Counted from the stretch's first letter, positions 5,138-41,907 are shown. The stretch is 64,000 nucleotides of DNA from Dehalococcoidia bacterium (GCA_041653995.1 JBAZEK010000001.1:1030613-1094612), one strand, 5' to 3'. Notes: generated from the letters alone by a model not told the origin. Numbers and translations: made by a program.

Positions 5138-7201
5138 ATGGTGACAATGCTGAGGCTCTGCATAGCCCTGATTATCATTATCGCATTGGTCCTGCCAGGA
5201 ACAGGTTGTATTAAATTGGGCAAACTGCCGGGAAAACAGGCCGCGGAAAATAAGACTGCAGCATCAGGCGTCACGGCCGGGGGAACTGCCGGACAGTCAG
5301 GATCACAGGCGCCGGACACGGCGGGCAATCAGCCCGGTCAGGGCGGACAACCGGGCGCCCAACCCTCCGGCCAGGAGGCACAGGTCATTACCGGCGGTGG
5401 TGGAGTTGCCGTTGCCAACTGGATCGGCACCTGGCAATGCGGCAACTTTAAAATGTATCTGAACCAGGCAGGTGACCGGGTAACTGGGTGGTACGAGTAC
5501 GAAAACAGCGACATCGAAGGCACTGCTACCGGCAACACTCTCACCGGTACCTGGACTGTATCAGGTGTTAAATATGGTTTTCAGATTGTTCAGTCCTCTG
5601 ACGGCAAATCCTTTTCCGGCCGTTATAACCAGGGAACTTCAAGCAATCAAGGTGGATCATGGTCATGCACAAGGATAAGCACGGCCATGCCCACTGCAAA
5701 ATCATCAGGAGAAAATTCCCAGGTAATCACCCAGGGAGGAGGCGTGGCCGTTGCCAACTGGATCGGCACCTGGCAGTGCGGCAACAATAAAATGTACTTG
5801 GACCAATCAGGAAATCAGGTGACCGGGTGGTTCGATTCTGAAAATAGCGATATTGAGGGCTTTGCCACAGGCAATACACTTGTGGGTACCTGGACCAAGG
5901 GCGGAGTCAAATATGATTTCCAACTGGATCAGTCGTCTGACGGTAAATCATTTGCCGGACATTTTCGCCAGGGATCATCAGGCGCATGGACGGGAGAATG
6001 GTTCTGTATACGCACCAGCAGCGCCAGACCTCCGGCGAAACCAGCCACATCATATCCCCCCTCAGCCATACAGACTGCAAGCTGGACAGGTACATGGGAA
6101 TGCAATAATTATAAAATGTACCTGACCCAGACAGGCAGCAAGGTGACCGGCTGGACTGAACTGGATAATGGTGACATCGAAGGCTATGCAACCGGTAACA
6201 CAATTGTCGGCACCTGGACACTCTCCGGAATTGAATATGATATTCAGCTAAACCAGTCATCCGACGGCAAATCCTTTACAGGCCATTACCGTCAGGGTTC
6301 ATCAGGCAATTGGGCAGGAAGCTGGCCCTGCACTTTTATAACCAACGCACAGCCTCTGCCAAAGTCCGCAGTTCGATCTCAGCCTGCACCGACAGCACCC
6401 CCCACAAGCTGGACCGGCACATGGCAGTGCGGCCAGAAACAAATATGGCTACTTCAGACGGGCAGCCAGGTCATTGGCTGGTATGATGAACAGAGCGGTG
6501 ATATTCAGGGCTATGTCACAGGAAATACACTGGTAGGAACCTGGGCGGACGCCTCGGGTGAAAAAGATATTCAGCTGTCCATGTCCGCAGACGGGAATGC
6601 TTTTTCGGGTCATTACCGCACCAGCCCTTCAGCAAGCTGGATCAGCCACTTCTCCTGCACGAAAAAAAGCGCGGAATTACCCGCACCCAAAGTAACATTT
6701 GATATACAGCCCGTAAGTATTACCAGGGGGATGTCCGCGCAGTTATCCTGGAGCACTATACTGGCTACTTCTGTAGATATTAAACCGGACATAGGTCCCT
6801 GTGGCGCTAATGGCAAAATAAATGTCAAGCCCGACGCAGACATCTCATATACATTGAGCGCGAGCAACCCATTTGGCGGATCTAAAGTAACAGTTCCCCT
6901 AAAGGTAACATCGCCGAACTGGAGCGGGGAATGGGACTGCGGAAGCTTTGGGCATATGATACTCACCCAATCCGGCAACCAGGTTAACGGAATATATACA
7001 TACCAGGGCGGTAAAATCAGTGGCTATGTTAACGGGAATAAGCTTGCAGGAACGTGGTCTGAGGACCCGACCCATAAAGCTCCTGATGATGCGGGTGGTT
7101 GCGAATTCACCCAGTCAGCAGATGGTCTTTCCTTTACCGGTTATTATGACTACGGGTTTTCAGGCGCCGTGAGTCCCTGGAACGGGAAAAGGATTAGATA
7201 G
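5138..7201 (+). CDS. secreted/membrane-anchored protein with five tandem ~105-aa Cys-pair repeats and one Ig-like domain
   Basis: 687 aa; N-terminal hydrophobic signal/anchor, Gly/Gln/Pro-rich linker, then repeats of W-x-G-T-W-x-C-G...M-Y-L-x-Q-x-G-x-x-V-T-G-W...D-I-E-G-x-A-T-G-N-T-L-x-G-T-W...Q-S-S-D-G-K-S-F-x-G-x-Y-R-Q-G-S-S-G-x-W-x-G-x-W-x-C; repeats also >80% identical at DNA level between copies 1 and 2. Confidence 0.7.
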   Translation: MVTMLRLCIALIIIIALVLPGTGCIKLGKLPGKQAAENKTAASGVTAGGTAGQSGSQAPDTAGNQPGQGGQPGAQPSGQEAQVITGGGGVAVANWIGTWQCGNFKMYLNQAGDRVTGWYEYENSDIEGTATGNTLTGTWTVSGVKYGFQIVQSSDGKSFSGRYNQGTSSNQGGSWSCTRISTAMPTAKSSGENSQVITQGGGVAVANWIGTWQCGNNKMYLDQSGNQVTGWFDSENSDIEGFATGNTLVGTWTKGGVKYDFQLDQSSDGKSFAGHFRQGSSGAWTGEWFCIRTSSARPPAKPATSYPPSAIQTASWTGTWECNNYKMYLTQTGSKVTGWTELDNGDIEGYATGNTIVGTWTLSGIEYDIQLNQSSDGKSFTGHYRQGSSGNWAGSWPCTFITNAQPLPKSAVRSQPAPTAPPTSWTGTWQCGQKQIWLLQTGSQVIGWYDEQSGDIQGYVTGNTLVGTWADASGEKDIQLSMSADGNAFSGHYRTSPSASWISHFSCTKKSAELPAPKVTFDIQPVSITRGMSAQLSWSTILATSVDIKPDIGPCGANGKINVKPDADISYTLSASNPFGGSKVTVPLKVTSPNWSGEWDCGSFGHMILTQSGNQVNGIYTYQGGKISGYVNGNKLAGTWSEDPTHKAPDDAGGCEFTQSADGLSFTGYYDYGFSGAVSPWNGKRIR

Positions 7202-11504: not shown

Positions 11505-12790
11505 GCGACAACGACACAGCCACATTAACACCGGCGAATCCGGCATCTACGGACGCCGATATGCTTGATAAGCAGCTGACCAGAGAGGTTGAAGCTGCGC
11601 TGGGCGGCTGCGTACGCTGCGGCCTCTGCGCCGAGTCCTGCCATTACTACTCCGCCCAGCCTCAACTTCAGAATATGCCCGTCTACCGGGGTGAGGCCGT
11701 GAGAAAATTTTTCCGCCAGGCCGGCAGCCGGGCGAAGGGATTATTTCATCGGCCTGCAAAGGCGAAAACCGATGTATCGTCCCTTGACACGCTGGCGGAT
11801 ATGGCCTTCGGCAAGTGCACCCTTTGCCGCCGCTGCACGGTGAACTGCCCTGTGGGAGTGGATACGGCGGCGCTCATGCGTACCGCACGCGCCATCGCCA
11901 CGGCCTCCGGCAAAGCGCCGGAGATACTGGTCCAGCTCGCCGATGCGGCCATCAGCCGCGGGGAGAACATGGAGCTCTTTCGCGATATGTTGCTGGACCG
12001 TTTCAAAGAGCTTGAGGTCGAGACACGCAACAAGATCAATGATCCCGCTTTTTCGATTCCCGTGGGTAAAAAAGGCGCCGATATGCTGTTCGTAGGCCTC
12101 TCGGGCGAGCACAGCATAGTGCCCCCCGCCATATTGTTTCATTACGCCGGGGCAAACTGGACACTCAGCCTGTTTGAGGCGTCCAATTATGGCTCATTCC
12201 TGGGCGACAGCGAGAGATCGAAAAAAATAGCTCAACGCATAATCGACGAAGCCGGAGACCTTGGTGTGAAAGAGGTTGTGATCGGCGAGTGCGGCCACGC
12301 ATATACGGTGCTGCGCTGGGAGGCGCCCAAGTGGTTCAAAAAAGCGCTGCCGTTTCGTGTCAGGAGCCTGATAGAGGTGCTGGCCGAGTGGATACAGAGC
12401 GGGCGGCTGATCCTCAATCCCGAGGCCAATCCCGATCCTGTCACATATCATGATTCCTGCAACCTGGGCCGCAACGGCGGCCTTCTGGAGGAGCCACGCG
12501 TTGTGCTGCGCGCTGCAGTCAAGGATTTCCGCGAGATGTACCCCAACAGGGAGGAAAGCTATTGCTGCGGAGGAGGCAGCGGCATGGTGGCCGTTTCCGA
12601 ATGGGAAGAACGGCGCATGCTGGCGGGCTTGCCTAAAGCCAGGCAGATCAAGGCCACCGGCGCTAAAATCGTTGTCGCTTCCTGCGACAACTGCCGTATC
12701 CAGCTTGGCGAGCTCAACGAGCGCTACAACCTGGGCATCAAAGTGACCGGCCTGGCCGACCTGGTTGTGAACGCCGTCGTCAAAAAATAG
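11501..12790 (+). CDS. HdrD/DsrK/GlpC-like iron-sulfur protein (two 4Fe-4S ferredoxin motifs + two CCG domains)
   Basis: 429 aa; CVRCGLCAESCHYY and CTLCRRCTVNCPV cluster motifs; C-terminal cysteine-rich CCG repeats (ECGHAY...; YHDSCNLGR...; CCGGGSG). Confidence 0.75.
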   Translation: MSDNDTATLTPANPASTDADMLDKQLTREVEAALGGCVRCGLCAESCHYYSAQPQLQNMPVYRGEAVRKFFRQAGSRAKGLFHRPAKAKTDVSSLDTLADMAFGKCTLCRRCTVNCPVGVDTAALMRTARAIATASGKAPEILVQLADAAISRGENMELFRDMLLDRFKELEVETRNKINDPAFSIPVGKKGADMLFVGLSGEHSIVPPAILFHYAGANWTLSLFEASNYGSFLGDSERSKKIAQRIIDEAGDLGVKEVVIGECGHAYTVLRWEAPKWFKKALPFRVRSLIEVLAEWIQSGRLILNPEANPDPVTYHDSCNLGRNGGLLEEPRVVLRAAVKDFREMYPNREESYCCGGGSGMVAVSEWEERRMLAGLPKARQIKATGAKIVVASCDNCRIQLGELNERYNLGIKVTGLADLVVNAVVKK

Positions 12791-12833
12791 TTCCAGTGGG
12801 CCTTTTCTCTCCCTGCATTGCCGGCGCTTATTA

Positions 12834-12915
12834 GTCATTGCGAGGAACGTAGTGACGAAGCAATCCTGTACGTGATTGCGTATACACAAGATTGCCACGC
12901 TTCGCTCGCAATGAC
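12834..12915. repeat. MITE-like palindromic element, copy A (11-bp terminal inverted repeats GTCATTGCGAG/CTCGCAATGAC)
   Basis: 82 bp in 3' intergenic region; left 36 bp nearly identical to copy B at 16884. Confidence 0.6.
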
Positions 12916-12988
12916 GAGGAGAGAAACGCTGGCAACGACGTCTCGGCAAATACACCTCTTAACAGCGCCGTATGTTATCATTTGAGAC

Positions 12989-13720
12989 GTGGAATCCATT
13001 CCCCTCCTCAAGTACCTTGTGGAAGCCGGAATCGGCGCCAGGCGCCAGGTAGTAGCCGCCATCAAGATCGGCCGCGTATCAGTCAACGGGAAGCAGGCCG
13101 AGAGCTATACCATGCCGGTCTATCCGCAGGCGGACAGGATCACCTTCGACGGTAAACCCGTCGCGTTCCACAGCCGTGCCAGAATCGTCCTTATGCTGCA
13201 CAAACCGCTGAACCTGCTGACTACCACTAGCGACGACCGCGGCAGGCAGACTGTGCTCGATATCCTCCCAGCCGAGTACCGCGGACTGGGCCTGTATCCT
13301 GTGGGAAGACTGGACCACGATACCACCGGGCTGCTACTTCTGACCAATGACGGCAACCTTACCTACCGCCTGACGCATCCCCGCTTCGAGCTGGGCAAGG
13401 AATACTTTGTGCACATAGAAGGTACGCTGAGCCGGCAGGAAAAAGAGCTGCTGGAAAAAGGCGTGATGCTGGACGACGGCATCACAGCGCCCGCCGGAGT
13501 GAAGGAGATCGGCTACGAGCCGCCCTACAATTACAGCATCACCATCCACGAAGGGCGCAACCGCCAGGTCAGGCGCATGTTCGCCCATCTCGGATATACC
13601 GTCAAATCCTTAAAACGTGTCAGGATGGGGAATCTCCGGCTGGGCGACCTGGCTGAAGGAAGCTTCAGAAGACTCTCTGCACAGGAGATCGCATCGGCCC
13701 TGCGCCAGCACAAACAATAG
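12989..13720 (+). CDS. RsuA/RluB-family pseudouridine synthase (S4 domain + catalytic domain)
   Basis: 243 aa; N-terminal S4 (LKYLVEAGIGARRQVVAAIKIGRVSVNGK), catalytic GRLDHDTTGLLLLTNDG. Confidence 0.8.
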   Translation: MESIPLLKYLVEAGIGARRQVVAAIKIGRVSVNGKQAESYTMPVYPQADRITFDGKPVAFHSRARIVLMLHKPLNLLTTTSDDRGRQTVLDILPAEYRGLGLYPVGRLDHDTTGLLLLTNDGNLTYRLTHPRFELGKEYFVHIEGTLSRQEKELLEKGVMLDDGITAPAGVKEIGYEPPYNYSITIHEGRNRQVRRMFAHLGYTVKSLKRVRMGNLRLGDLAEGSFRRLSAQEIASALRQHKQ

Positions 13721-13837
13721 CACGCTCGAGTTCATAATCATTGACGGGTAAGTCAATGATGTGCAGCCGTTGCCCTGTTGGTGTACAATATGCAGGGTTT
13801 TGCTCGCAACTAATTAAAATAAGGAGTGTGATTCAAT

Positions 13838-14779
13838 ATGGGTGACAGGCTAAAGGGCAAGGTAGCAATCGTTACGGGTTCCGGACGCGGCATCGGCCGT
13901 GCCGAGGCCATGGCGCTGGCCGCTGAGGGCGCCAAGGTTGTTGTCAACGACCTCGGCGCAGCTTCAGACGGCTCCGGCAAATCGGCCAGCCCGGCGGAGG
14001 AAGTCTGCCAGGAGATCAAGAAGCTGGGCGGCGAGGCCGTACCCAATTTTGATTCTGTGGCCACCTGGGCCGGCGGCGAGAATATCGTAAAGACCGCTAT
14101 CGATAAATTCGGCCGCATCGACATCCTGGTCAATAACGCGGGCATCCTGCGCGACCGCATGCTCTTCAACATGAGCGAGGACGAGTGGGATATTATTCTC
14201 AAAATACATCTATATGGCCATTTTTACTGTGCCAGGGCTGCTTCTCCCTATATGCGCCAGCAGCGCTGGGGGCGCATCATCAACACCTCATCCATCGCCG
14301 GCCTGGGCAATATGGGCCAGACCAACTACAGCGCAGCCAAAGAGGGCATCGTCGGATTCACCCGCTCGGCGGCTCTGGATCTGGGCAAATACGGCATAAC
14401 CTGCAATGCCATCCGTCCCAATGCAGCCACGCGCATGACGGTTACACCCGAGCTCAAGGCCGCCTGGGAGAAGAGGGCCGCAGCGGCGGGCATCACCGAT
14501 AAGGCGCAGTTCGAGGCCATGATCAGCCAGATGTTCGCCTCCAAACCTGAGAATATCGCCCCTGTAGTGGTTTTCCTCTGCACGGACGAGGCTGCCAACA
14601 TCAACGGCAGGACCCTCTTTATCAACCTCAACCAGGTCGGCCTGTATTCAGAGCCTGCCCTGATCAAGGAGATCAATAAGGCCGAAGGCTTCTGGTCTGT
14701 TGATGAACTGGTCAAAGAGATCCCGGGCAAGCTGACCGGCGACCTGGTGAATCCGGCGCCGCCTCAGCCGGCCAAATAA
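13838..14779 (+). CDS. short-chain dehydrogenase/reductase (MFE-2/HSD17B4 N-terminal-like SDR)
   Basis: 313 aa; KVAIVTGSGRGIGRAEA Rossmann motif, NNAG, YSAAK catalytic Tyr-Lys. Confidence 0.85.
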   Translation: MGDRLKGKVAIVTGSGRGIGRAEAMALAAEGAKVVVNDLGAASDGSGKSASPAEEVCQEIKKLGGEAVPNFDSVATWAGGENIVKTAIDKFGRIDILVNNAGILRDRMLFNMSEDEWDIILKIHLYGHFYCARAASPYMRQQRWGRIINTSSIAGLGNMGQTNYSAAKEGIVGFTRSAALDLGKYGITCNAIRPNAATRMTVTPELKAAWEKRAAAAGITDKAQFEAMISQMFASKPENIAPVVVFLCTDEAANINGRTLFINLNQVGLYSEPALIKEINKAEGFWSVDELVKEIPGKLTGDLVNPAPPQPAK

Positions 14780-14799
14780 ACCGCTCAAACAGATAAGCT

Positions 14800-14840
14800 A
14801 AACAGAAGGGCATCACCCTAAAAGATGCCCTTCTGTTATA
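14800..14840 (+). terminator. rho-independent terminator-like hairpin downstream of SDR gene
   Basis: AACAGAAGGGCATC-loop-GATGCCCTTCTGTT followed by TTATAAT. Confidence 0.5.
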
Positions 14841-14884
14841 ATCTCCTTTAACAAGCGCCGGCAGGCTTCAATCAGAGGTTGAAA

Positions 14885-16351
14885 ATGACTGATTTCATCG
14901 TGCAGGACAGCCGACGTCAGCTCTGGATCGTCATAAGCGTGGCATTTGCAGCGTTTATGGCGGCGCTGGATACCTATATTGTCAACGTGGCCCTGCCCAC
15001 CATAGCGTCGGATTTCAATGCCAGCCCCACCGATGCGGCGCTCATCACGCTTTCATATCTGCTGGTCATCACCAGCACCCTGCTTATCTTCGGTAAGATC
15101 GGGGAGAGGACAGGCTTCAAAGTCGTGTTTGTCGCCGGATTCGCCCTGTTCGCCGTCGGCTCTTTCCTGAGTGGACTGGCTCCCACGCTGTACCTGCTCT
15201 CAGGCGCGCGCTGCATACAGGGATTTGGCGCCGCCATGCTTTACGCCGTGGGGATGGCCATGATAATCAGGTACATACCGCCGGGCAAGCGCGGCTGGGC
15301 TTTCGGCATCACCTCGACCGGGGCCGGTATGGGCGTGATTATAGGCGCGCCCATGGGCGGCTTTATCACGCAGTACCTGGACTGGCACTGGATATTCTGG
15401 TTCAACGTGCCGGTCGGTATCGCCGCCGTCATCGTGGCGCTGAAGGTGATGCCCAACGACCGCGTCCGCCGCAAAAAGGGCGTCAAACTTCCCCCCTTCG
15501 ATATCGCCGGCGCCCTGATGAGCTTTTTCGCGCTGGCGCTCCTTGTGGGAGCTATAAACCGGGGCCAGCAGTTCGGCTGGGACCACTGGGGCATCTGGGG
15601 CTCATTCACTCTCTCCGCCATACTTTTCATAGCGTTCGTACTGTGGGAGAAGAGGTGCCGCGATCCCCTGCTCGACATGTCCCTTTTCAAGTTCGCCAGC
15701 TTCGGCTTCGGATCGTTCGCCGCACTGGCCGCATGGAGTATGTACTCCGGAGGCAACTTCCTCTTCCCCTTCTACCTGACCATGATCCAGGGCCTTTCAT
15801 CCAGCATGATCGGCTCCATCTTCCTTATCAGCTCCGTTGTATATATCGCCACCAGCCTTTACATGGGACGGCTGTCCGACCGGATCGGCAGGCGGGTGCT
15901 ATGCTGCGCCGGCATGATCTCGGCCTGCGCGGCGCTGATTTTCCTGGCGCTGACGATGGGCCTGCCCTCCCTCATTCCCATGATGGTTTATCTGGCATGG
16001 GTCGGCGTATCCATGGGCACATTCGTCTCACCCAATAACAGCCTTATGCTCGGATCCATACCGACAGATAACCAGGGCGAAGCGTCGGCGGCGTCCAGGG
16101 CCATGCAAAACCTGGGCATGGTGCTGGGCGTGGCTATCTTTGAGACCGTGTTCTCGGCCTTCATACCATCCGCCGACCTGGGCTCCGAGCAGGCCGTTGC
16201 AGGTGTGCCCACAAACGTGCTTGTGATGGGCTTCAGCGCCGCATGTTTCGTGGGCGCCGCCATGTGCGTTTTATCCCTCATCCTATCCTGGCTGGCCAAA
16301 GAAGACAGTGCGGCTGCAACGGGCGAAAAGCCCGGGCCCATAGCGATTTAG
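14885..16351 (+). CDS. MFS transporter, DHA2 (14-TMS drug:H+ antiporter) family
   Basis: about 488 aa; ATG 14885 seven nt after AGAGG (TTG 14879 alternative); 14 hydrophobic segments, MFS motif region GRLSDRIGRR. Confidence 0.85.
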   Translation: MTDFIVQDSRRQLWIVISVAFAAFMAALDTYIVNVALPTIASDFNASPTDAALITLSYLLVITSTLLIFGKIGERTGFKVVFVAGFALFAVGSFLSGLAPTLYLLSGARCIQGFGAAMLYAVGMAMIIRYIPPGKRGWAFGITSTGAGMGVIIGAPMGGFITQYLDWHWIFWFNVPVGIAAVIVALKVMPNDRVRRKKGVKLPPFDIAGALMSFFALALLVGAINRGQQFGWDHWGIWGSFTLSAILFIAFVLWEKRCRDPLLDMSLFKFASFGFGSFAALAAWSMYSGGNFLFPFYLTMIQGLSSSMIGSIFLISSVVYIATSLYMGRLSDRIGRRVLCCAGMISACAALIFLALTMGLPSLIPMMVYLAWVGVSMGTFVSPNNSLMLGSIPTDNQGEASAASRAMQNLGMVLGVAIFETVFSAFIPSADLGSEQAVAGVPTNVLVMGFSAACFVGAAMCVLSLILSWLAKEDSAAATGEKPGPIAI

Positions 16352-16378
16352 CGTACCTTTATACAGAGGTTACTTTCG

Positions 16379-16873
16379 ATGCAGGGCTATGAGATAAGAC
16401 GGGTACGGGAGGCGGACCGCAGCACCGTGGTGAGCATCTTCAACTACTTCGTTGAGAACAGCTTCGCTGCCTACCCCGATAAAAAAGTGGGGCCGGAGAT
16501 CTTCGACCTGCTTAAAAATATGAGCAGGGCGGGGGTTTTTTATGTGGCGGAAACGGCAGACAAAGAGGTGATAGGCTTCGCCCTGCTGAGACATCACCAG
16601 GTTGCAGAGGCGTTCAAGCGTGCCGGCGAGATCACCTATTTCATTCTGCCCGGGCACGAACGCAGGGGCCTGGGCTCCCGCTTTATGGAGACCATTATTA
16701 TTGATGCCAGGGCTGCAGGTGTGGAAACGCTACTGGCCAATATATCATCGCTCAACGAGGTGAGCCTAAATTTCCACCTCAAGCACGGATTCAAAGAGTG
16801 CGGAAGCTTCCAGCGCATCGGGCAGAAGTTCGGCCGGGATTTCGACGTCGTCTGGATGCAGAAATTCCTGTAG
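16379..16873 (+). CDS. GNAT-family N-acetyltransferase
   Basis: 164 aa; acetyl-CoA binding motif HERRGLGSRFM. Confidence 0.8.
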   Translation: MQGYEIRRVREADRSTVVSIFNYFVENSFAAYPDKKVGPEIFDLLKNMSRAGVFYVAETADKEVIGFALLRHHQVAEAFKRAGEITYFILPGHERRGLGSRFMETIIIDARAAGVETLLANISSLNEVSLNFHLKHGFKECGSFQRIGQKFGRDFDVVWMQKFL

Positions 16874-16883
16874 GCCGGCGCAC

Positions 16884-16971
16884 GCGTCATTACGAGGAAC
16901 GCAGTGACGAAGCAATCTTGTGCCGTCATGCGCGTGAACAGGATTGCCGCGCCCTCCGGGCTCGCAATGAC
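16884..16971. repeat. MITE-like palindromic element, copy B
   Basis: 88 bp; GTCATTACGAGGAACGCAGTGACGAAGCAATCTTGT ... CTCGCAATGAC; lies between convergent gene ends. Confidence 0.6.
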
Positions 16972-16990
16972 CAATGATGATTAATACTTA

Positions 16991-18259
16991 CTACTTCGAG
17001 CGGAAATCGAAAGGCCCGATTTTAAATTCGTACTGATCTGAGTCCGGCGCCGGTATCCAATCCTGGCCGTCGCCCTGGTCGAACTCATAGTACCCCGGCA
17101 GCCTGTCGGGCCATTCAGCCAGCTCAACCGGCACCGAGAGCTGCTGATCCCCTCTCTGTATAGACAGTGTGACTTTATCCCCCGGCTTCTTGCCGTTGAA
17201 ATAAGAAAGGATATCGTTCACTTTAGCTACAGGTGTATCATCAACCGCCAGGATAATGTCGCCACCCGCCGCAGGCTCGTTTTGTTTATTCCTGCCGCTC
17301 TCCACCAACCCGGCCCTGTCCGCAGGGCTGCCGGTTATAACGCCGACGATGTACACGCCCTTCGTCGCCTTGAGATCCAGCTTGTCCTCCAGGTCTCGGC
17401 TGACGGGCATGCCCTCGATGCCGAGCCAGGGGGCCCTGATGGTGCTGCCCTTGATCAGCTCAGGCAGTACTTTTTTAGCGGTATTGATAGGTACGGCAAA
17501 TCCCACCCCGTTGGCTGTGGCCTCTATAGCAGTATTGATACCGACTACTTCGCCTTTCGAATTGAGCAGCGGGCCGCCGGAATTGCCGGGATTGATTGCG
17601 GCGTCCGTCTGTATGATATCCGTTATATTGCGGCTGTTGGAATTTGGTATGGACCTGCCCGTGCCGCTGATGATGCCGATGGTGATAGAGCCCTGCAGAC
17701 CGTAGGGCGAACCAAGGGCCAACGCCATCTGGCCGGGTTTGACCTCGCTGGAATCTGCCATCACCAGGTATGTCAGGTTCGGCACTTTGGAAGCATCCAC
17801 CTGCAGCAGGGCTACATCGTTATTGAGGTCTGCTCCGATGACCTTTCCCTGGAGCTCGCTGCCGTCGCTGAGCACGATCTTGACGGTGGAAGCCCTGTCC
17901 ACCACGTGGTTATTGGTGAGAATATGGCCTTCCGTATCGATGATGAAGCCCGATCCCTGCCCCCTCATATTGGGTATATCCAGGCCGAAGGGGCCGAGCA
18001 ATTTAGAGGCGATCGTTGTCTCGGATTCCACCTGCACCACGGCCGGTATGCACTTTTCATACAGCGAAACAACCGTGTCTTCATCGTAGAGCGGCGTCAC
18101 CTGCACCGTCGCCGATGAGGAGGGAAGGTTGATGGACTTCTGCTCCGTGGAAACGGATCCCGCGCTGCAGCCGGTAAGCAGGAGCGCAGCAATTAAAAGG
18201 GCAGCGGCCGGCGTTCCGATCATGCTGCGCCGTCCACTGCAAATTTTTAATAAAGACAT
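16991..18259 (-). CDS. HtrA/DegP-family trypsin-like serine protease with PDZ domain
   Basis: 422 aa; GGGAGG RBS; lipoprotein-like signal (LLLTGCSAG); catalytic TNNHVV, D, GNSGGPL; C-terminal PDZ. Confidence 0.9.
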   Translation of the reverse strand: MSLLKICSGRRSMIGTPAAALLIAALLLTGCSAGSVSTEQKSINLPSSSATVQVTPLYDEDTVVSLYEKCIPAVVQVESETTIASKLLGPFGLDIPNMRGQGSGFIIDTEGHILTNNHVVDRASTVKIVLSDGSELQGKVIGADLNNDVALLQVDASKVPNLTYLVMADSSEVKPGQMALALGSPYGLQGSITIGIISGTGRSIPNSNSRNITDIIQTDAAINPGNSGGPLLNSKGEVVGINTAIEATANGVGFAVPINTAKKVLPELIKGSTIRAPWLGIEGMPVSRDLEDKLDLKATKGVYIVGVITGSPADRAGLVESGRNKQNEPAAGGDIILAVDDTPVAKVNDILSYFNGKKPGDKVTLSIQRGDQQLSVPVELAEWPDRLPGYYEFDQGDGQDWIPAPDSDQYEFKIGPFDFRSK

Positions 18260-31038: not shown

Positions 31039-31275
31039 TTACATGATGTAGGGCGTGCGGCAGCATTTAAGTGCAACACGATGAGAACATATGGTGGGCG
31101 ATACTGGATTTGAACCAGTGACCCCCTGTGTGTAAGACAGGTAAAAACCTTTAATTGACTGGAGCTTATTGATAATCTCTAGGGAAGCCTTACGTTGTCC
31201 TGAAAGAATCATGCTCAAATAGCTTTTACTGATACCTAATTCTTTGGCTAATTGACTCTGTGTTAACTTTTTCAT
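31039..31275 (-). CDS. XRE-family HTH protein whose C-terminal codons read through the tRNA-derived att repeat
   Basis: LTQSQLAKELGISKSYLSMILSGQRK HTH; last ~20 codons (GVTGSNPVSPTI) overlie the 51-bp tRNA-Val fragment. Confidence 0.55.
   Translation of the reverse strand: MKKLTQSQLAKELGISKSYLSMILSGQRKASLEIINKLQSIKGFYLSYTQGVTGSNPVSPTICSHRVALKCCRTPYIM
31092..31142. repeat. att-site direct repeat: 51-bp copy of tRNA-Val(TAC) 3' end
   Basis: TGGTGGGCGATACTGGATTTGAACCAGTGACCCCCTGTGTGTAAGACAGGT identical to 43144..43194. Confidence 0.85.
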
Positions 31276-31530
31276 TTATTTCACCCGCCTTTTTATATCC
31301 TTTAAGCCTGCGTTTCCAATTATCGGTAAATATTGGTACGACTTCTTCTGTCTTCCTTTTGCACTAAAGTTCCCCTGTGGTTTTCTCACAAAATGACAGT
31401 CTACCTCATCAATAAGCCATCTCCGTCCAATGTAGAGTGCATTAATCCGTCCCTCTGACAAAAGCTTACGAACCCGTCTCTCAGATATACCAAGCCTTTC
31501 TGCTGCCTGTGGAACCGTAAGTAGTTTCAT
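31276..31530 (-). CDS. excisionase-family (HTH_17/MerR-like) DNA-binding protein
   Basis: 84 aa; LLTVPQAAERLGISERRVRKLLSEGRINALYIGRRWLI matches excisionase/Xis HTH pattern; adjacent to attL. Confidence 0.6.
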   Translation of the reverse strand: MKLLTVPQAAERLGISERRVRKLLSEGRINALYIGRRWLIDEVDCHFVRKPQGNFSAKGRQKKSYQYLPIIGNAGLKDIKRRVK

Positions 31531-31823
31531 TCAATTACCTTCTATCATTTTAATATTATACCGTTATCGGAATAATGTCAAGTATAATTACAAGCTAAAA
31601 TATCTTTTCTTTTTGCCGCATTTTTCCATAATACTCCGCAGAATTTTTTCAAATCGTATTTAAATTAAGTTTTAAAAGTTCAAGAATGAGGGTTTATAAT
31701 ATGCATATAAACTGGAAGCATATGGAAGGAAGCACGATAGAAAGTTAGAACGTAAGCAAGCGAGTAAGCAAGAAGGAAAGCAGGCGAGCAGGGAAGCTAT
31801 GTTGCTTTCCTTTTTTTAATTTT

Positions 31824-32057
31824 TTGATTCGGAGGTACGAAATGACTGAAAACAAGGTCAAGGAAATTAGATTGAGCAAATGCATGAATCAGAGAGAACT
31901 GGCAGAGAGAGCTCATATCTGTCAAACAGCTATTTCAGACATTGAAAGGGGGGTAAGACTACCATGGAAAGCAGCGTCTGAAAAGCTTGCTATTGCATTG
32001 GGTGTCACAATCGAGGAATTATTCCCAAACAATCTTAGGGGAGGTAAAAATTGCTAA
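31824..32057 (+). CDS. XRE-family HTH regulator
   Basis: 77 aa; MNQRELAERAHICQTAISDIERG. Confidence 0.65.
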   Translation: MIRRYEMTENKVKEIRLSKCMNQRELAERAHICQTAISDIERGVRLPWKAASEKLAIALGVTIEELFPNNLRGGKNC

Positions 32058-32398
32058 ACAAAAATAGAACGTCTTTAAAGCTGGGAAACAAGAAAGTAGG
32101 CTACTTTGAAGGTGATAAATTCATCAAACCCGTAATCGGCTCAAAGCATCTGCTGAAATTTCCTTACCAAGCTTGGGCAATTGATGCCAAAGTATTTGAC
32201 GATGAAATTAAACCTAACGCCAATTATTTTATTGTAAGAGATAGGGAGTCGGGGCTTGAATATAGTTGTACGGTAAAGGACTTCGACAATTTAAAGCGAA
32301 CCATTAACAGAGGGTATGGTAAGCAGTACAGTCTATCTCTAAAACATTGGAAAATAGCAGCTATGGAAGACGCTGAAGCTTCCAGTAACGCAACATAG
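32051..32398 (+). CDS. hypothetical protein
   Basis: 115 aa ORF on island, AT-rich codon usage consistent with neighbours. Confidence 0.4.
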   Translation: MLNKNRTSLKLGNKKVGYFEGDKFIKPVIGSKHLLKFPYQAWAIDAKVFDDEIKPNANYFIVRDRESGLEYSCTVKDFDNLKRTINRGYGKQYSLSLKHWKIAAMEDAEASSNAT

Positions 32399-32579
32399 AG
32401 TAGTGCAGCACCCGTTTTAGTAGTTGGAGGTGCTGTGTAAAAATGGTATTAGACAGAAGGAAAAGGCTGATGGAGGAGGGTATGACTCGCCATGATATTT
32501 CAGGAGCCTACTTATTTAATCAATTCAAGTGAGTTGTAATAGATGGTCATACCTATTCGATGGTCTTAAGGAGGAAAAT

Positions 32580-33026
32580 ATGATTCAGGGCATAGAAAAT
32601 TATATAAATTTAACAGATACCAAGAATGAATGGGCAAAATTTCTAAATGGCTTTGAATGGCATTGGTTCTTTACTCTCACATTTGATAAAAAGGTAAGTG
32701 ATGACTTGGCATACAAGCAATTCTTTAGGTGGAAGAATTGGATAAAGAGTTCAGTAGGACACAGAATTTTCTATCTAATTATTCCTGAGCGTCCCAAGTA
32801 TAAGGGAGATAATACTCATATTCATGGATTTCTTAATGGTGTTGAAAATGAGAAACCCTACATATGGAGAAGGAAATGGGAGGCAATGGCAGGCTTTTCT
32901 CGGATTCAACCCTATGATAGTTCAAGGGGTGCAAGCTATTATCTAGCGGATAAAATTGTATTTAAAGAAGAGGATATTTATCATAGCAAAGACCTAAATA
33001 TGATAAAGATAAATACACTCAATTAA
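32580..33026 (+). CDS. putative rolling-circle replication initiator (HUH endonuclease, Rep-like)
   Basis: ATG 32580 after AAGGAGG; motif I FFTLTF, motif II (HUH) THIHGFL, candidate motif III Y-x-x-K in ASYYLADKIVFK. Confidence 0.5.
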   Translation: MIQGIENYINLTDTKNEWAKFLNGFEWHWFFTLTFDKKVSDDLAYKQFFRWKNWIKSSVGHRIFYLIIPERPKYKGDNTHIHGFLNGVENEKPYIWRRKWEAMAGFSRIQPYDSSRGASYYLADKIVFKEEDIYHSKDLNMIKINTLN

Positions 33027-33094
33027 ATCCATTATATATATCAATATGATTATTACTACAAACATCAATATTTATTTCTTTTACTTTTACTTTT

Positions 33095-33150
33095 CCTTAT
33101 GCCCCTTTTTTATTTTTGCCCCAAATATGAATTAAATATAAATATCTACA
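33095..33150. repeat. iteron-like repeat cluster downstream of rep (GCCCCTTTTTTATTTTTGCCCC ... AAATATAAATATCTACAA)
   Basis: GGGGCAAAAA(T/G)A(A/G)AAAAAGGGG-type motif recurs inverted at ~40250..40275; AAATATAAATATCTACAA recurs at 34199..34216. Confidence 0.45.
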
Positions 33151-33231
33151 ATTAATTGCATAAAATTGGGGCATAGGGAAAAAATCACATATAAAATTCA
33201 AATAGAAAGTCAGGAGGAATCAGTAAGTAAA

Positions 33232-33858
33232 ATGAGTACAATAATTTCAAAACCTACGACAATTCAAATTAGCATGCTTGGGACACATGCCTTTTGTGAA
33301 TATAGGATATATCTTGAGCTTGTTATGGGTTTTAAAGCACGAGGTACACCAGAAATGCTTGAAGGCACAAAAGCACACTCAAGGATAAATACGATGGCTT
33401 TCTTAACGAGAGATTCAAATATTAGCATTGAGGATGCGTTGCTCCAAGCAGAGTCAGACGGAAGAGAAATAACAAAAAGGAACGTACGGGTAACAGGTAA
33501 GATACTACGTGGGAATATCGATGAAATTCACATTGGGCCAAAAGAAATTACGATTATAGATGATAAAAAATGGGCAGAGCATTATCCATCATATAAAAAT
33601 CAAGTCTTTGGCTATTGCCTTGCGTTTAAAGAACAATACAACCCAAAGCAGCCGATATACGGTGCCATAAAGAATTATCAGTCTGGAAAGGAAGTCTGGA
33701 AAAAACAATTTTCAGTTTTGGAAGAGGAATATATAAACGGCATTGTTCAAAGAATACTGGGGATAATTCGTGAGGATATCACTCCAAAACCCATTGGTGT
33801 TAGAGAAGTATGCTGGCAATGTGGATTTAAAAATTACTGCAATGTAAGGACACGATAG
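33232..33858 (+). CDS. Cas4-like/DUF83 PD-(D/E)xK nuclease with 4-Cys Fe-S site
   Basis: ATG 33232 after AGGAGG; N-terminal Cys (HAFCEY), IDEI...IIDDKK (D/ExK), QVFGY (QhxxY), C-terminal CWQCGFKNYC (CxxCx5C). Confidence 0.6.
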   Translation: MSTIISKPTTIQISMLGTHAFCEYRIYLELVMGFKARGTPEMLEGTKAHSRINTMAFLTRDSNISIEDALLQAESDGREITKRNVRVTGKILRGNIDEIHIGPKEITIIDDKKWAEHYPSYKNQVFGYCLAFKEQYNPKQPIYGAIKNYQSGKEVWKKQFSVLEEEYINGIVQRILGIIREDITPKPIGVREVCWQCGFKNYCNVRTR

Positions 33859-33895
33859 CAAAATGGTGGAAAAAGGAAAAAGAAGAAACTAACTA

Positions 33896-34159
33896 CTATA
33901 CTGCCTTGAAACCCACAATAAAGTAATTTGATTTATCAAATATAAGTCTTATCTTGTGTTCTGAATTATCCTTGCCGGCCAGGGCAATTAAGAATGATAG
34001 CTTCTTTGGATTAGTAACTGTCTTAGAAATTGGACGATGGACAATAAAACCCTCAAGTTCAATCTTCACATATCTACAGCCAGTCTTCGGATATGGCAAA
34101 TCCTTCTCTTCCACAATATCTATATATTTGCATATGGCTGAATTTGTCCTTCTTGGCAT
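33896..34159 (-). CDS. hypothetical protein
   Basis: 87 aa ORF on island; no motifs. Confidence 0.3.
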   Translation of the reverse strand: MPRRTNSAICKYIDIVEEKDLPYPKTGCRYVKIELEGFIVHRPISKTVTNPKKLSFLIALAGKDNSEHKIRLIFDKSNYFIVGFKAV

Positions 34160-34526
34160 ATTTATTTCCTTTCTTCCCTTTTCCGCTAAATTTAAACTAA
34201 ATATAAATATCTACAAATTATTATATTAAATCCACAACCAAATTTGAATATGAATGCCACAGATAAATGGCGGAAAAGAAAAAGAGTCTTAGAGATATTA
34301 TTATTTTGTATTATTTTCTTTAATAGTCAGATAGCAAGTGTGGCTAAGGGCAATTTTACCTTTAAAAATATTGAATCTGGTTGTCATTTGTCTAGTGCTT
34401 TAAAAATAGAAAACCTTCACGTGTGAGAAATGCCAGTAGCACGTGTATTAGAAGCGGCATTTTAAATAAAATCTTAGCCCAAAGTCATAGCAAATATAGA
34501 TTGTTGCATGCGTCCTTTTAATACGA

Positions 34527-34610
34527 TAGAATACGGTCAATGTAGTGAGGCTGGGGAGATGAAATATTTACTTGCTTGTTTCATAGCACTATTCGTTATA
34601 TCAGCCTGTG
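34527..34610 (+). repeat. 84-bp module (5' UTR + RBS + lipoprotein signal peptide MKYLLACFIALFVISAC) duplicated identically at 40435..40518
   Basis: exact identity of ATAGAATACGGTCAATGTAGTGAGGCTGGGGAGATGAAATATTTACTTGCTTGTTTCATAGCACTATTCGTTATATCAGCCTG; weaker similarity extends ~80 bp upstream. Confidence 0.8.
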
Positions 34611-36502: not shown

Positions 36503-36527
36503 GAAATTTCAAAAATGGAGACTGAAT

Positions 36528-36824
36528 ATGACTGGCGAATTGGGAAATTTTGTTATCGTCATGGGATTACCCTGTTTAGGAGCGCTGTTAATAGCTTTTT
36601 GTTCATTACCAACCGATAAATGGACAATAAAACACACTTTTATGTTGGTGGGAACTTCACTAATTTTTATTAGCTTTATTTTGCAAGCATATCAGATTAT
36701 TGATAAATACCCTGATAAAAATGAATATATATTTGGATGGTGGATTGTCGGTTTAGCTACCGTTATCATGGCTATAATAGGGCAAATTATTAGAATCAGA
36801 TACGGTAAAAGTTGGTTCCAATAG
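36528..36824 (+). CDS. small 3-TM membrane protein
   Basis: 98 aa hydrophobic ORF directly after lipoprotein gene. Confidence 0.4.
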   Translation: MTGELGNFVIVMGLPCLGALLIAFCSLPTDKWTIKHTFMLVGTSLIFISFILQAYQIIDKYPDKNEYIFGWWIVGLATVIMAIIGQIIRIRYGKSWFQ

Positions 36825-36920
36825 GATAATAAAATAGTGGGAAAGGAAAGAGAAGGAAATTTAATTAGCTATCTATATTTAAGATAAGAGTGACTTATAG
36901 AACTTCATTGAGGTTGGGAG

Positions 36921-37451
36921 ATGCAACAACAGTATCAATGCCCTAATTGTAGGTATCCAGTTGCTTATGGGAATAATTTCTGTGGACATTGTAGACAACA
37001 ACTAATCTGGCAACAATTAATGCCACCTTCACCACCAGTACACCATCAGCAAACACCACAAGGCATTATTGGGAAATCACACGAGCAAAACACTTCTGGA
37101 CAAGGTGGTCAATCAATAATACCCGATGAAAAGCGTATTAAACTTCCAAAACTCAATATTCGTTTCGACTTTGAGTTGTTTCAAGCAATTGAGGACAATG
37201 ACCGTAAACTGGCTGAACAGCTCAAAGCAAAATATGGGGATGATGTTTATAATTCCAATTTTTATAACCTGCTTAGTATCGAAGACGCTAACTCAGTAGA
37301 CTCACTTCATCTTAAACTAGTATCAGTTGAAAAAATGAATTTCAATGATATTTTATGCGAAAGTATCAAAATAGAGACTGAAAAAGTACGCAAAAGGATA
37401 GAGGAGCTTGAGAATATAAAAAATTTACGCAACGGGATTGAGGAAGTGTAA
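36921..37451 (+). CDS. zinc-ribbon (MQQQYQCPNC...CGHC) + coiled-coil protein
   Basis: 176 aa; N-terminal CPNC-x11-CGHC; member of the window-wide MQQxYxCPxC family. Confidence 0.55.
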   Translation: MQQQYQCPNCRYPVAYGNNFCGHCRQQLIWQQLMPPSPPVHHQQTPQGIIGKSHEQNTSGQGGQSIIPDEKRIKLPKLNIRFDFELFQAIEDNDRKLAEQLKAKYGDDVYNSNFYNLLSIEDANSVDSLHLKLVSVEKMNFNDILCESIKIETEKVRKRIEELENIKNLRNGIEEV

Positions 37452-37461
37452 GGAACTGACT

Positions 37462-37505
37462 AAACCCCTGAAACTGGCAGCTCGAGTAAGAAAAATGGCG
37501 GGAAA
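37462..37505 (+). repeat. ~44-bp intergenic repeat (AACCCCTGAAACTGGCAGCTCGAGTAAGAAAAATGGCGG), second copy 39411..39455
   Basis: ~90% identity; each sits between a stop codon and next start; in second copy ATGGCGG is the start of the HEPN-like gene. Confidence 0.6.
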
Positions 37506-37511
37506 GAAAAT

Positions 37512-39368: not shown

Positions 39369-39410
39369 ATAATTTCTTGATATTAAGAAATCGAGGTGTA
39401 CTGGTCTGAA

Positions 39411-39455
39411 CCCCTGAAACTGGACAGCTTGAGTAAGAAAAATGGCGGAAAAAGA
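39411..39455 (+). repeat. second copy of ~44-bp intergenic repeat
   Basis: AACCCCTGAAACTGGACAGCTTGAGTAAGAAAAATGGCGG. Confidence 0.6.
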
Positions 39456-41880: not shown

Positions 41881-41907
41881 AAGAAAATCAAAAGGGAGGT
41901 AAAGAAG

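What the first reader, a model, noticed from the sequence alone, without database searches (positions are those of the whole stretch)
12834..16971. Two copies of an ~85-bp MITE-like palindromic element with 11-bp terminal inverted repeats (GTCATTGCGAG…CTCGCAATGAC)
Copy A (12834..12915) and copy B (16884..16971) share a near-identical 36-bp left arm (GTCATT(G/A)CGAGGAACG(T/C)AGTGACGAAGCAATC(C/T)TGT) and the right terminus GATTGCC(A/G)CGC…CTCGCAATGAC. Each can fold into a long hairpin. Both lie in 3' intergenic space (after the HdrD-like gene, and between convergent GNAT and HtrA genes). They could serve as terminators or REP/MITE-like mobile repeats.
Basis: seen in the sequence. Interest (0 to 1): 0.5.

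Follow-up and report, generated by a model that had tools for sequence, protein, structure and literature searches.

The report
Paired REP-like hairpin repeats, Ssn-nuclease type
The two ~85-bp palindromes are real. Each is an inverted pair of a small DNA-hairpin repeat found across almost all bacterial phyla, whose relatives flank, and in Neisseria are cut by, tiny GIY-YIG single-strand DNA nucleases (Ssn), so this is a variant of a recently described system rather than a classic MITE or a terminator.

Summary
Copy A is 12834-12915 and copy B is 16886-16971 (not 16884). The left arms match at 33 of 36 positions, and the 11-bp termini are perfect in A and carry one mismatch in B.

Each copy is a dimer. 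Two ~26-32-nt units lie in inverted orientation around a 24-nt spacer. The unit is Y-GTC-ATTGC-GAG-[variable mini-hairpin, often GCGNAGC]-CGAAG-GCAAT-C.

An exact 24-mer of the left arm occurs in more than 120 species-representative genomes across nearly all bacterial phyla. In other genomes the same inverted units flank a ~95-aa GIY-YIG gene. Among 80 loci fetched by that protein alone there were 240 units, against 1-6 in shuffled sequence. The protein aligns end to end with the Neisseria SsnA orthologue (42% identity, E 9e-32).

The elements therefore belong with the Ssn-related motifs (Chenal 2025) and the CGTC-tagged REPs (Di Nocera 2013). They fail the published SRM search pattern, so I class them as a structural variant.

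Orthologous loci show that site A is filled in two relatives and empty in two others. I found no target-site duplication, no RAYT next to units, no terminator tail, no Rfam hit and no Ssn gene in the window. Interest is modest.

The parts
12834..12865 (+). Copy A, left unit: GTCATTGCGAGGAACGTAGTGACGAAGCAATC. It has the GTC head, a 5-bp basal stem ATTGC/GCAAT, a GA-rich internal loop, an apical AC-GTA-GT mini-hairpin and the tail C.
   Evidence: The exact 24-mer CGAGGAACGNAGTGACGAAGCAATC recurs in more than 120 genomes.
12866..12889 (.). Copy A spacer, 24 nt (CTGTACGTGATTGCGTATACACAA). Its ends extend the palindrome.
   Evidence: A similar spacer occurs in a Dehalococcoidia MAG, L196. The median spacer in the family is 24 nt.
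12890..12915 (-). Copy A, right unit. Its reverse complement is GTCATTGCGAGCGAAGCGTGGCAATC, which contains the GCGAAGC mini-hairpin and the 'CGYGGCAATC' arm class.
16886..16917 (+). Copy B, left unit: GTCATTACGAGGAACGCAGTGACGAAGCAATC. A G-to-A change breaks one basal-stem pair, and the C at 16885 completes a CGTC head.
16918..16941 (.). Copy B spacer, 24 nt (TTGTGCCGTCATGCGCGTGAACAG).
16942..16971 (-). Copy B, right unit. Its reverse complement is GTCATTGCGAGCCCGGAGGGCGCGGCAATC, with an apical CCC-GGA-GGG hairpin.
   Evidence: The orthologous arm in L323 differs only at the middle loop base, GCA instead of GGA.

Best explanation
Each element is a tail-to-tail dimer, with the GTC heads outermost, of a small REP-like DNA hairpin unit. 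The unit belongs to the CGTC-tagged REP / Ssn-related-motif (SRM) superfamily.

**Proposed mechanism.**
- When the DNA is single-stranded (replication, repair, or incoming DNA), each arm folds into a short hairpin: a basal stem ATTGC/GCAAT, a purine-rich internal loop, and an apical GNA-type mini-hairpin.
- An Ssn-family single-domain GIY-YIG nuclease recognises the hairpin together with the unpaired GTC head and the C that follows the stem. It nicks the single strand a few nucleotides 5' of the head.
- Because the two arms are inverted, the predicted cuts fall just outside the element, on the top strand to its left and on the bottom strand to its right.

**Relation to the gene-bearing cassette.** The gene-less dimers in the window are best read as non-autonomous relatives of the compact cassette unit(+)-ssn-unit(-) seen in other genomes. 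Equally, they could be empty versions of it.

**Status of each step.**
- Shown here: the anatomy, the family, the linkage to Ssn-type genes, and the presence/absence polymorphism.
- Shown by others, for NTS-type units only: ssDNA-specific binding and cleavage, and the effect on transformation (PMC11893778).
- Inferred: that this unit type is cut by its associated Ssn clade, that the source Dehalococcoidia genome encodes such an enzyme, and what the cell gains from it.
For: **Unit definition.** In IMG/VR, the pattern CATTGCGAG-N(4-24)-GAAGCAATC hit more than 120 contigs and 180 units.
- Positions outside the pattern are conserved: G at -2 in 176 of 180, T at -1 in 174, Y at -3 in 170, and Y at +1 in 174.

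**Apical hairpin.** The middle segment varies but stays a hairpin.
- 225 of 238 distinct segments close with a Watson-Crick pair, against 62 of 238 after shuffling. 123 have at least 2 bp, against 15 after shuffling.
- The commonest forms are GCGNAGC and G-GA-AC-GNA-GT-GA-C.
- GCGNAGC is the 'extraordinarily stable' DNA mini-hairpin (PMC13037366, PMC3201870).

**Distribution.** The left arm's exact 24-mer hit more than 120 stretches in species-representative genomes. These span Proteobacteria, Chloroflexota, Bacteroidota (including Chryseobacterium isolates), Omnitrophota, Saccharibacteria, Actinobacteria, Firmicutes and others.

**Dimers are typical.** At least 63 of 122 such hits have an inverted partner, with a median spacer of 24 nt, the same as in the window.

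**Linkage to a nuclease gene.**
- GIY-YIG ORFs lie between inverted units in L178, L146, L242 and L230. Six of the 8 Ssn-like ORFs in loci fetched by DNA pattern are within 25 nt of a unit.
- From the protein side, 80 metagenome loci fetched by the protein alone carry 240 units in 175 kb, against 1-6 in shuffles.
- A (-) unit lies within 150 nt downstream in 51 of 77 loci, a (+) unit lies upstream in 45 of 79, and both are present in 32 of 72.
- The downstream unit starts 0-9 nt after the stop codon in 19 of 32 located cassettes. The ORF length mode is 95 aa.

**The protein is Ssn-type.** It carries Pfam GIY-YIG. hhalign against the N. gonorrhoeae SsnA orthologue gives probability 99.9%, E 9e-32 and 42% identity over 93 columns. 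That orthologue is 94 aa, has Y6, Y17 and E64 as in the paper, and is flanked by NTS repeats.

**Published system.** NTS/SRM hairpins flank ssnA and are bound and cut only as ssDNA, upstream of the head. The C after the stem and the bases before it are critical.

**Turnover in the source lineage.** The source is a Dehalococcoidia MAG. Site A is filled in the window and in L323 and empty in L324 and L326. Site B is filled in all four, but with a different left arm in L323, L324 and L326.
Against: - None of the four arms matches the published SRM degenerate search sequence. That pattern finds 0 matches in the window and 1 in the 80 Ssn loci.
- Nearest-neighbour DNA folding does not rate the single arms as unusually stable (-2.7 to -7.8 kcal/mol, z 0 to -1.3). 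The Neisseria NTS scores -8.9 kcal/mol, z -4.6. The standard energy model may not credit GNA loops or tandem G.A pairs, which is my reasoning and was not tested.
- No Ssn-type gene lies in the 64 kb. The window's only GIY-YIG ORF (62152-62439) is a distant relative: 33% identity, probability 96.8%.
- The rest of the source genome could not be searched, so neither the genome-wide copy number nor the presence of a cognate nuclease is known.
- No biochemical data exist for this unit type.
- Copy B's left arm carries a stem-breaking change, and copy B folds no better than shuffled sequence as a whole. The copies may be decaying.
Confidence: 0.7

Rival explanations
1. Inert relics. The dimers are leftovers of past SRM/Ssn activity or of horizontal transfer. 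They have no cognate nuclease in this genome and no present role.
For: - There is no Ssn gene in the window.
- Copy B has a basal-stem mismatch and folds no better than shuffled sequence.
- Only two copies occur in 64 kb.
Against: - Arms at orthologous site B stay intact hairpin units while their sequences differ between relatives. Site A shows gain or loss. Both points suggest ongoing turnover in the lineage.
- Heads and tails are intact in all four arms.
Confidence: 0.2
2. RNA-level element. The transcribed hairpins at gene 3' ends act as terminators, or as barriers to 3' exonucleases that stabilise the upstream mRNA, as proposed for classical REPs.
For: - Both copies sit just downstream of stop codons.
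- Copy A folds strongly as RNA, z -4.1 and -5.7.
- Di Nocera et al. note that REPs lie mostly downstream of ORFs and are probably transcribed.
Against: - There is no T-run and no terminator-like site at either element, and no Rfam match even at E up to 10.
- Single units elsewhere show no orientation bias relative to flanking genes, 24 sense against 24 antisense.
- The loop types (GNA) are classic DNA hairpin motifs.
- SsnA does not bind RNA.
- This role could still be a by-product of the DNA-level element.
Confidence: 0.1
3. REPIN-type element mobilised by a RAYT (IS200/IS605-like Y1 transposase).
For: The architecture is an inverted doublet of REP-like hairpins with no target duplication, like REPINs.
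Against: - The head is GTC, not GTAG.
- tblastn with three RAYT/TIRYT sequences found only 2 hits in 2.24 Mb of unit-rich loci, 1.2 and 3.7 kb from the nearest unit.
- Di Nocera et al. found no Y1 transposase flanked by CGTC repeats.
- Ssn-type genes, by contrast, are directly flanked by units.
Confidence: 0.05
4. Classical MITE: an internal-deletion derivative of a DDE-transposase IS that shares the 11-bp TIRs and makes target-site duplications.
For: Perfect 11-bp terminal inverted repeats, small size, intergenic position, and a presence/absence polymorphism.
Against: - The flanks show no direct duplication: A has ...CTTATTA|element|GAGGAGA..., B has ...GCACGC|element|CAATGAT....
- The inverted repeat is the whole 26-32-nt structured unit, and units also occur singly and in tandem.
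- Clustering of 2365 neighbouring ORFs gave no recurrent transposase.
Confidence: 0.04

Closest known systems
Ssn-related motifs (SRM; Neisseria NTS, which overlaps dRS3) and the Ssn family of GIY-YIG site-specific ssDNA nucleases (Chenal et al. 2025, Nat Commun, PMC11893778)
   Same: - An oriented hairpin repeat with an unpaired (C)GTC head, a stem that starts AT, and a C immediately after the stem.
- It occurs in inverted pairs.
- The same units directly flank a ~94-96-aa single-domain GIY-YIG gene as repeat-gene-repeat. The associated protein is 42-57% identical to the gonococcal SsnA orthologue.
   Different: - The stem is interrupted: a 5-bp basal stem, a GAG/CGAA internal loop and a variable apical mini-hairpin, instead of an 8-bp perfect stem with a 4-nt loop.
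- It fails the published degenerate SRM pattern.
- Cleavage of this unit type has not been tested.
- No ssn gene is seen in the window.
CGTC-tagged REP superfamily, families CGTC-1 to -4, including Rickettsia RPE-4/RPE-6 and Neisseria dRS3 (Di Nocera et al. 2013, PMC3733652)
   Same: - The head is CGTC or TGTC, the stem begins AT, and the tail is CC(A/T).
- Units are mostly organised as inverted dimers.
- They lie between co-directional or convergent genes, close to 3' ends.
- No transposase lies next to them.
   Different: - The described families have uninterrupted 8-9-bp stems and 4-5-nt loops. The peptides they encode (for example VIPAKAGI, VIAGLDPAIH) do not correspond to ATTGCGAG...CGAAGCAAT.
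- Two of the window's four arms have AGTC or GGTC instead of YGTC.
REP/BIME and REPIN elements with RAYT transposases
   Same: Short extragenic palindromes, inverted doublets that form long hairpins, no target duplication, and recognition presumably at the ssDNA level.
   Different: The head differs (GTAG), as does the partner enzyme (an HUH Y1 transposase). No RAYT lies next to these units. REPs are usually species-specific, whereas this unit is identical across phyla.
MITEs such as Neisseria Correia elements
   Same: Small, non-coding, terminally inverted and dispersed in intergenic space.
   Different: MITEs have target-site duplications and derive from DDE IS elements. Neither feature is seen here.
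Subterminal hairpins of IS200/IS605 elements
   Same: Imperfect DNA hairpins read on one strand, with cleavage beside rather than within the hairpin. This analogy is drawn by Chenal et al..
   Different: The enzyme fold differs (GIY-YIG against HUH), and transposition has not been shown for the Ssn cassette.

Membership tests
SRM / NTS (Ssn-related motif) | A hairpin-forming repeat of about 20-50 nt | tested here: met
   - All arms have the basal stem ATTGC/GCAAT, with one mismatch in B-left.
- Apical segments close as hairpins in 225 of 238 distinct variants, against 62 of 238 after shuffling.
- The thermodynamic model alone is unconvincing for single arms.
SRM / NTS (Ssn-related motif) | A conserved non-palindromic 5' head (C)GTC that gives the repeat an orientation | tested here: met
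   GTC is present in all four arms. In 180 units found with a pattern that did not include the head, G at -2 occurs in 176, T at -1 in 174 and Y at -3 in 170.
SRM / NTS (Ssn-related motif) | A C immediately 3' of the palindrome, the base most critical for SsnA binding | tested here: met
   All four arms end ...GCAAT-C. In the wider scans this C was part of the search pattern.
SRM / NTS (Ssn-related motif) | A match to the published degenerate search sequence HGTCWYN(0-2)YYVSBRHN(0-5)WNVSBRGN(0-2)RNCYNB | tested here: not met
   There are 0 matches in the window, none of the 4 arms matches, and there is 1 match in the 80 Ssn loci, which is chance level. The Neisseria NTS control matches.
SRM / NTS (Ssn-related motif) | Physical linkage to ssn genes (single-domain GIY-YIG, ~94 aa) as repeat-ssn-repeat | tested here: met
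   - Met for the unit family: with protein homology to SsnA.
- Not met within the window itself.
SRM / NTS (Ssn-related motif) | ssDNA-specific binding and cleavage a few nucleotides upstream by the cognate Ssn | not testable with these tools
   This needs EMSA and nuclease assays. It has been shown only for NTS-type units of Neisseria and Wolbachia.
CGTC-tagged REPs (Di Nocera 2013) | A terminal CGTC (or TGTC/CCTC) tag | tested here: inconclusive
   B-left and A-right have CGTC. A-left has AGTC and B-right has GGTC. Family-wide, the base before GTC is C or T in 170 of 180 units.
CGTC-tagged REPs (Di Nocera 2013) | A stem of 8-9 bp starting with A-T and T-A pairs, and a loop of 4-5 nt | tested here: not met
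   The stem starts AT, but only 5 bp are contiguous. An internal loop and a variable apical hairpin with 3-nt GNA loops follow.
CGTC-tagged REPs (Di Nocera 2013) | A short unpaired tail (consensus CCA) and predominantly inverted dimers | tested here: met
   The four arms have C-CTG or C-TTG tails, and both copies are inverted dimers with the heads outward. The published CGTC-1 dimers encode the same order, VIPAKAGI...IPAFAGMT.
MITE | Target-site duplication flanking the TIRs | tested here: not met
   No direct repeat is visible in the flanks of A or B. Filled and empty site A could not be aligned to the base because the flanks have diverged.
MITE | A parent IS with the same termini that encodes a transposase | tested here: not met
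   No recurrent transposase appears among 2365 neighbouring ORFs. The only gene found between such arms is the GIY-YIG nuclease.
REPIN / RAYT | A GTAG head and a RAYT gene flanked by the repeats | tested here: not met
   The head is GTC. RAYT-like hits are rare and not adjacent to units.
Rfam RNA families / intrinsic terminators | A match to a curated RNA model, or a GC hairpin followed by a U-tract | tested here: not met

The most novel reading that the evidence does not exclude
The ATTGCGAG...CGAAGCAAT hairpin units and their Ssn clade could form a pan-bacterial, partly phage-borne, self-propagating mini-element. The ~400-bp cassette unit-ssn-unit would be the smallest autonomous mobile element known, with a GIY-YIG 'transposase' that works on ssDNA. 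Gene-less dimers such as the two in this window would be its non-autonomous progeny. The identity of 24-30-nt arms across phyla would then reflect recent, widespread horizontal spread rather than ancient conservation. Chenal et al. raise the IS-like architecture only as a hypothesis, and mobility has not been shown.
Probability: 0.3. Interest if true: 0.65.

Novelty: new variant of a known kind. Interest (0 to 1): 0.35.

Why it matters
REP-like repeats of the CGTC type had no known partner enzyme until 2025, when Ssn nucleases were shown to cut Neisseria's version as ssDNA.

This window shows that a structurally different unit is missed by the published search pattern. That unit has an interrupted stem and a GNA mini-hairpin. 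It is spread over almost all bacterial phyla, and also occurs in IMG/VR viral contigs and in one MAG labelled as archaeal. It is tightly linked to its own Ssn clade.

Three consequences follow:
- Counts of SRMs and of 'orphan' Ssn genes are probably underestimates.
- The work supplies ready-made new enzyme and site pairs for ssDNA tools.
- It gives a tractable case, with filled and empty sites in related Dehalococcoidia, for asking whether these repeats move.

For annotating this window the result is simpler. The two palindromes are repeat elements. They are not genes, regulators or terminators.

Tried and rejected
- **Rfam.** Gathering thresholds over the whole window and E up to 10 over 12600-17200 gave nothing at the elements.
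- **Literature by sequence string.** I searched for the termini, the arms and their reverse complements. Only unrelated primers came back.
- **RNA motif or ribozyme idea.** The GAG...CGAA core resembles the stem-II side of a hammerhead. I dropped this because there is no third helix, no Rfam hit and no strand bias relative to genes.
- **Neighbour-gene clustering.** Among units in IMG/VR and genome loci, the recurrent families were phage structural proteins and one ABC transporter, with no transposase.
- **RAYT association.** Rejected.
- **Terminator.** Rejected.
- **Filled against empty site A.** I tried to define the insertion point and a possible target duplication, but the flanks are too diverged.
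- **Supplementary data of Chenal et al.** These would list SRM sequences but are not held in the library.
- **NCBIfam.** It has no specific model for the Ssn proteins. The only PDB relative is a UPF0213 protein, 1zg2, at E 1.4e-6.

Full report
**1.

- The 11-mer GTCATTGCGAG and its reverse complement bound copy A exactly, at 12834-12844 and 12905-12915.
- Copy B is bounded at 16886-16896 (GTCATTACGAG, one mismatch) and 16961-16971. B therefore starts at 16886, not 16884.
- The two 36-nt left arms agree at 33 positions. The repeat finder lists the pair as a 67-nt repeat at 78% identity.
- The right arms share their ends but differ in the middle.
- Copy A folds into a long hairpin well beyond shuffled controls: RNA z -4.1 and -5.7, DNA z -4.5. 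Copy B does not: z -0.8 to -2.1.
  - A follows an HdrD-like CCG/4Fe-4S gene and precedes an RluA-type pseudouridine synthase gene.
  - B lies between the convergent GNAT and HtrA-like genes.
- No further copy exists in the 64 kb.
- A second assembly of the same strain (L001, 99.99% identical) has both copies unchanged.

**2. Each element is a dimer of a smaller unit**

Bases outside the search pattern are conserved: G at -2 in 176 of 180, T at -1 in 174, a pyrimidine at -3 in 170, and a pyrimidine at +1 in 174.

The unit is therefore Y-GTC-ATTGC-GAG-[variable segment]-CGAAG-GCAAT-C-Y.

The variable segment differs between copies but remains a hairpin.
- 225 of 238 distinct segments close with a Watson-Crick pair, against 62 of 238 after shuffling.
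- 123 have at least 2 bp, against 15 after shuffling.
- The commonest forms are GCGNAGC and G-GA-AC-GNA-GT-GA-C.
- GCGNAGC is the 'extraordinarily stable' DNA mini-hairpin, and GNA triloops are classic DNA hairpin motifs (PMC13037366, PMC3201870).

Standard nearest-neighbour DNA energies do not rate single arms above shuffles. The case for the unit hairpin therefore rests on the compensatory variation and on published data for these loops.

Units occur in three arrangements: singly, in tandem (for example L050), and as inverted pairs with the heads outward. The window's two elements are such pairs with 24-nt spacers, which is the family median.

**3. Distribution**

The hits span Alpha-, Beta- and Gammaproteobacteria, Desulfobacterota-type MAGs, Chloroflexota, Bacteroidota, Ignavibacteriota, Omnitrophota, Melainabacteria, Saccharibacteria, Elusimicrobiota, Actinobacteria, Firmicutes and Nitrospirota. 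They include cultured Chryseobacterium isolates and one MAG labelled Halobacteria.

Many hits lie on contigs of 0.2-3 Mb, so this is not a binning artefact.

The source of the window is a Dehalococcoidia MAG. Another Dehalococcoidia MAG (L196) carries a whole-element relative, with 83-86% identity including the spacer.

Because the scan saturated on other taxa, I could not count copies in the source genome.

**4. What the units go with**

- Clustering of 2365 ORFs near units gave no recurrent transposase.
- RAYT-like sequences are rare and not adjacent to units.
- Reading the flanks did show small GIY-YIG ORFs lying between inverted units, in L178, L146, L242 and L230, with a variant arrangement in L205.
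- Six of the 8 Ssn-like ORFs in loci fetched by DNA pattern are within 25 nt of a unit.

I then tested the link from the protein side. Eighty metagenome loci were fetched with an alignment of five of these proteins, with no reference to the repeat.
- They hold 240 units in 175 kb, against 1-6 in shuffled sequence.
- A (-) unit lies within 150 nt downstream of the ORF in 51 of 77 loci.
- A (+) unit lies upstream in 45 of 79, and both are present in 32 of 72.
- In 19 of the 32 located cassettes that have a downstream unit, that unit starts 0-9 nt after the stop codon. The modal ORF length is 95 aa.

**5. This is a known kind of system**

Di Nocera et al. (2013, PMC3733652) defined a superfamily of REPs tagged by CGTC. 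These have stems that begin AT, a CCA tail and mostly inverted dimers. They lie near gene 3' ends and 'apparently lack a dedicated transposase'.

Chenal et al. (2025, PMC11893778) reported the following:
- The Neisseria member, NTS (CGTCATTCCCGCGMAVGCGGGAATCYRG, overlapping dRS3), flanks ssnA, a 94-aa single-domain GIY-YIG gene.
- SsnA binds the hairpin only as ssDNA, in one orientation, and cuts a few nucleotides upstream.
- The bases before the stem and the C after it are critical.
- The system lowers transformation by NTS-bearing DNA.
- Thousands of Ssn homologues across phyla are flanked by 'Ssn-related motifs' (SRM).

The proteins I found are Ssn-type.
- They carry Pfam GIY-YIG.
- They align end to end with the N. 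gonorrhoeae SsnA orthologue: hhalign probability 99.9%, E 9e-32, 42% identity over 93 columns. The L146 protein is 57% identical to it.
- That orthologue is 94 aa, has Y6, Y17 and E64 as in the paper, and is flanked by NTS repeats.

**6. How this unit differs from the published ones**

- The window's unit shares the head (GTC-AT), the tail (AT-C) and the dimer organisation with NTS and CGTC-1.
- Its stem is interrupted: a 5-bp basal stem, a GAG/CGAA internal loop and a variable apical mini-hairpin.
- None of the four arms matches the published SRM search sequence. That pattern finds nothing in the window and only 1 match in the 80 Ssn loci, while the NTS control matches.
- The four CGTC families are described with 8-9-bp stems and 4-5-nt loops. 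The peptides they encode do not correspond to this sequence.
- I therefore file it as a structural variant within the SRM/CGTC superfamily, not as one of the described families.

**7. Behaviour in the source lineage**

Four relatives with conserved gene order were fetched (HdrD-like protein 80-89% identical).
- Site A carries the element in the window and in L323 (89%). It is absent from L324 (84%) and L326 (80%), whose intergenic regions are 90 and 47 nt.
- Site B carries a dimer in the window and in the three relatives that cover it.
  - The left arm is of another subtype in L323 (GCGAAGC type) and in L324/L326 (GGAGCCGCAGGCGAC type).
  - The right arm of L323 differs from the window's only at the middle loop base.
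- The elements are thus gained, lost and remodelled on a short evolutionary scale.
- No target-site duplication is visible.
- The exact insertion point at site A could not be defined because the flanks have diverged.

**8. Mechanism, and how sure**

- Most likely (confidence about 0.7), the arms are ssDNA recognition hairpins for an Ssn-clade nuclease. The predicted cuts lie just outside the dimer on opposite strands. The dimers would be gene-less relatives of the unit-ssn-unit cassette.
- The anatomy, the linkage and the polymorphism are shown here.
- Cleavage is shown only for NTS-type units, by others.
- Three steps are inferences: that this unit type is cleaved, that the source genome has the enzyme, and what effect follows (restriction of incoming ssDNA, or spread of the repeat).
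- The window has no Ssn gene. Its GIY-YIG ORF at 62152-62439 is only a distant relative.

The alternatives are all weaker:
- inert relics;
- an RNA-level role as a by-product of transcription through the hairpins;
- RAYT-driven REPINs;
- a classical MITE.

**9. Verdict**

It belongs to a recently explained class, so it is not categorically new.

The added value has three parts:
- a widespread unit type that the published motif misses;
- its own Ssn clade;
- a filled/empty site pair in Dehalococcoidia.

Noticed in passing
window 31095-43219: A low-GC island (about 35% GC against about 54% in the flanks) lies next to a tRNA cluster: Val-tac at 43144-43219, then Arg, Leu and Val-cac up to 43470. 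A partial copy of the tRNA-Val 3' part at 31095-31160 bounds its far end. This looks like an element integrated at tRNA-Val, and several internal repeats lie at 33-42 kb.
   Followed up: partly
window 62152-62439 (+): A 95-aa single-domain GIY-YIG ORF. It is only distantly related to the Ssn clade (hhalign probability 96.8%, 33% identity), no units lie nearby, and it has no NCBIfam match. It is probably a sister family, possibly UPF0213/YhbQ-like, though that assignment was not tested.
   Followed up: partly
window 44754-45085 and 61036-61116: A tandem 18-nt repeat run of CAGCAACCGGGCTATCCG-like units, which would translate as Pro/Gln/Gly/Tyr-rich repeats. A 27-nt tandem repeat at 61 kb is about 72% complementary to it.
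   Followed up: no
window 5381-6306: Diverged direct repeats spaced 324-339 nt apart (repeat finder families D5, D9 and D16).
   Followed up: no
L323 12377-12447; L331 88-140 and 728-790: Tandem partial 'heads' lie directly 5' of a full unit. Each is GTCATTGCGAG plus about 12 nt and is repeated 3 times. This is where an Ssn would be predicted to cut, so they may be footprints of repeated cleavage and repair, or of slippage.
   Followed up: no
IMG/VR loci L003, L005, L008, L019, L039, L115 and others: A group of related contigs with recurring large ORFs that look like phage structural genes (not checked against any protein family) carries single units in short intergenic gaps, often ending 10-25 nt before a ribosome-binding site and ATG. 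Orientation is uniform within a contig but not consistent relative to transcription across contigs.
   Followed up: partly
L331 (Planktothrix agardhii plasmid NZ_LR882964.1, 18456-19516): An ssn cassette is flanked by a sister unit type, TGTCATTCTGAG...CGAAGAATC, whose basal stem carries compensatory changes. It sits between an MmeI-type restriction-modification gene and DISARM drmA, so it lies among annotated defence genes.
   Followed up: no
L130 (contig CAVYIJ010000001.1, 428 kb): A complete dimer with the window's exact left arm occurs in a MAG labelled Halobacteria archaeon. This is either mislabelling or transfer into an archaeon.
   Followed up: no
L330 (NZ_CP119140.1): A 2.17-Mb Neisseria gonorrhoeae record is filed as a 'plasmid' in PLSDB. 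It is evidently a chromosome, and it supplied the SsnA orthologue and its NTS flanks.
   Followed up: no
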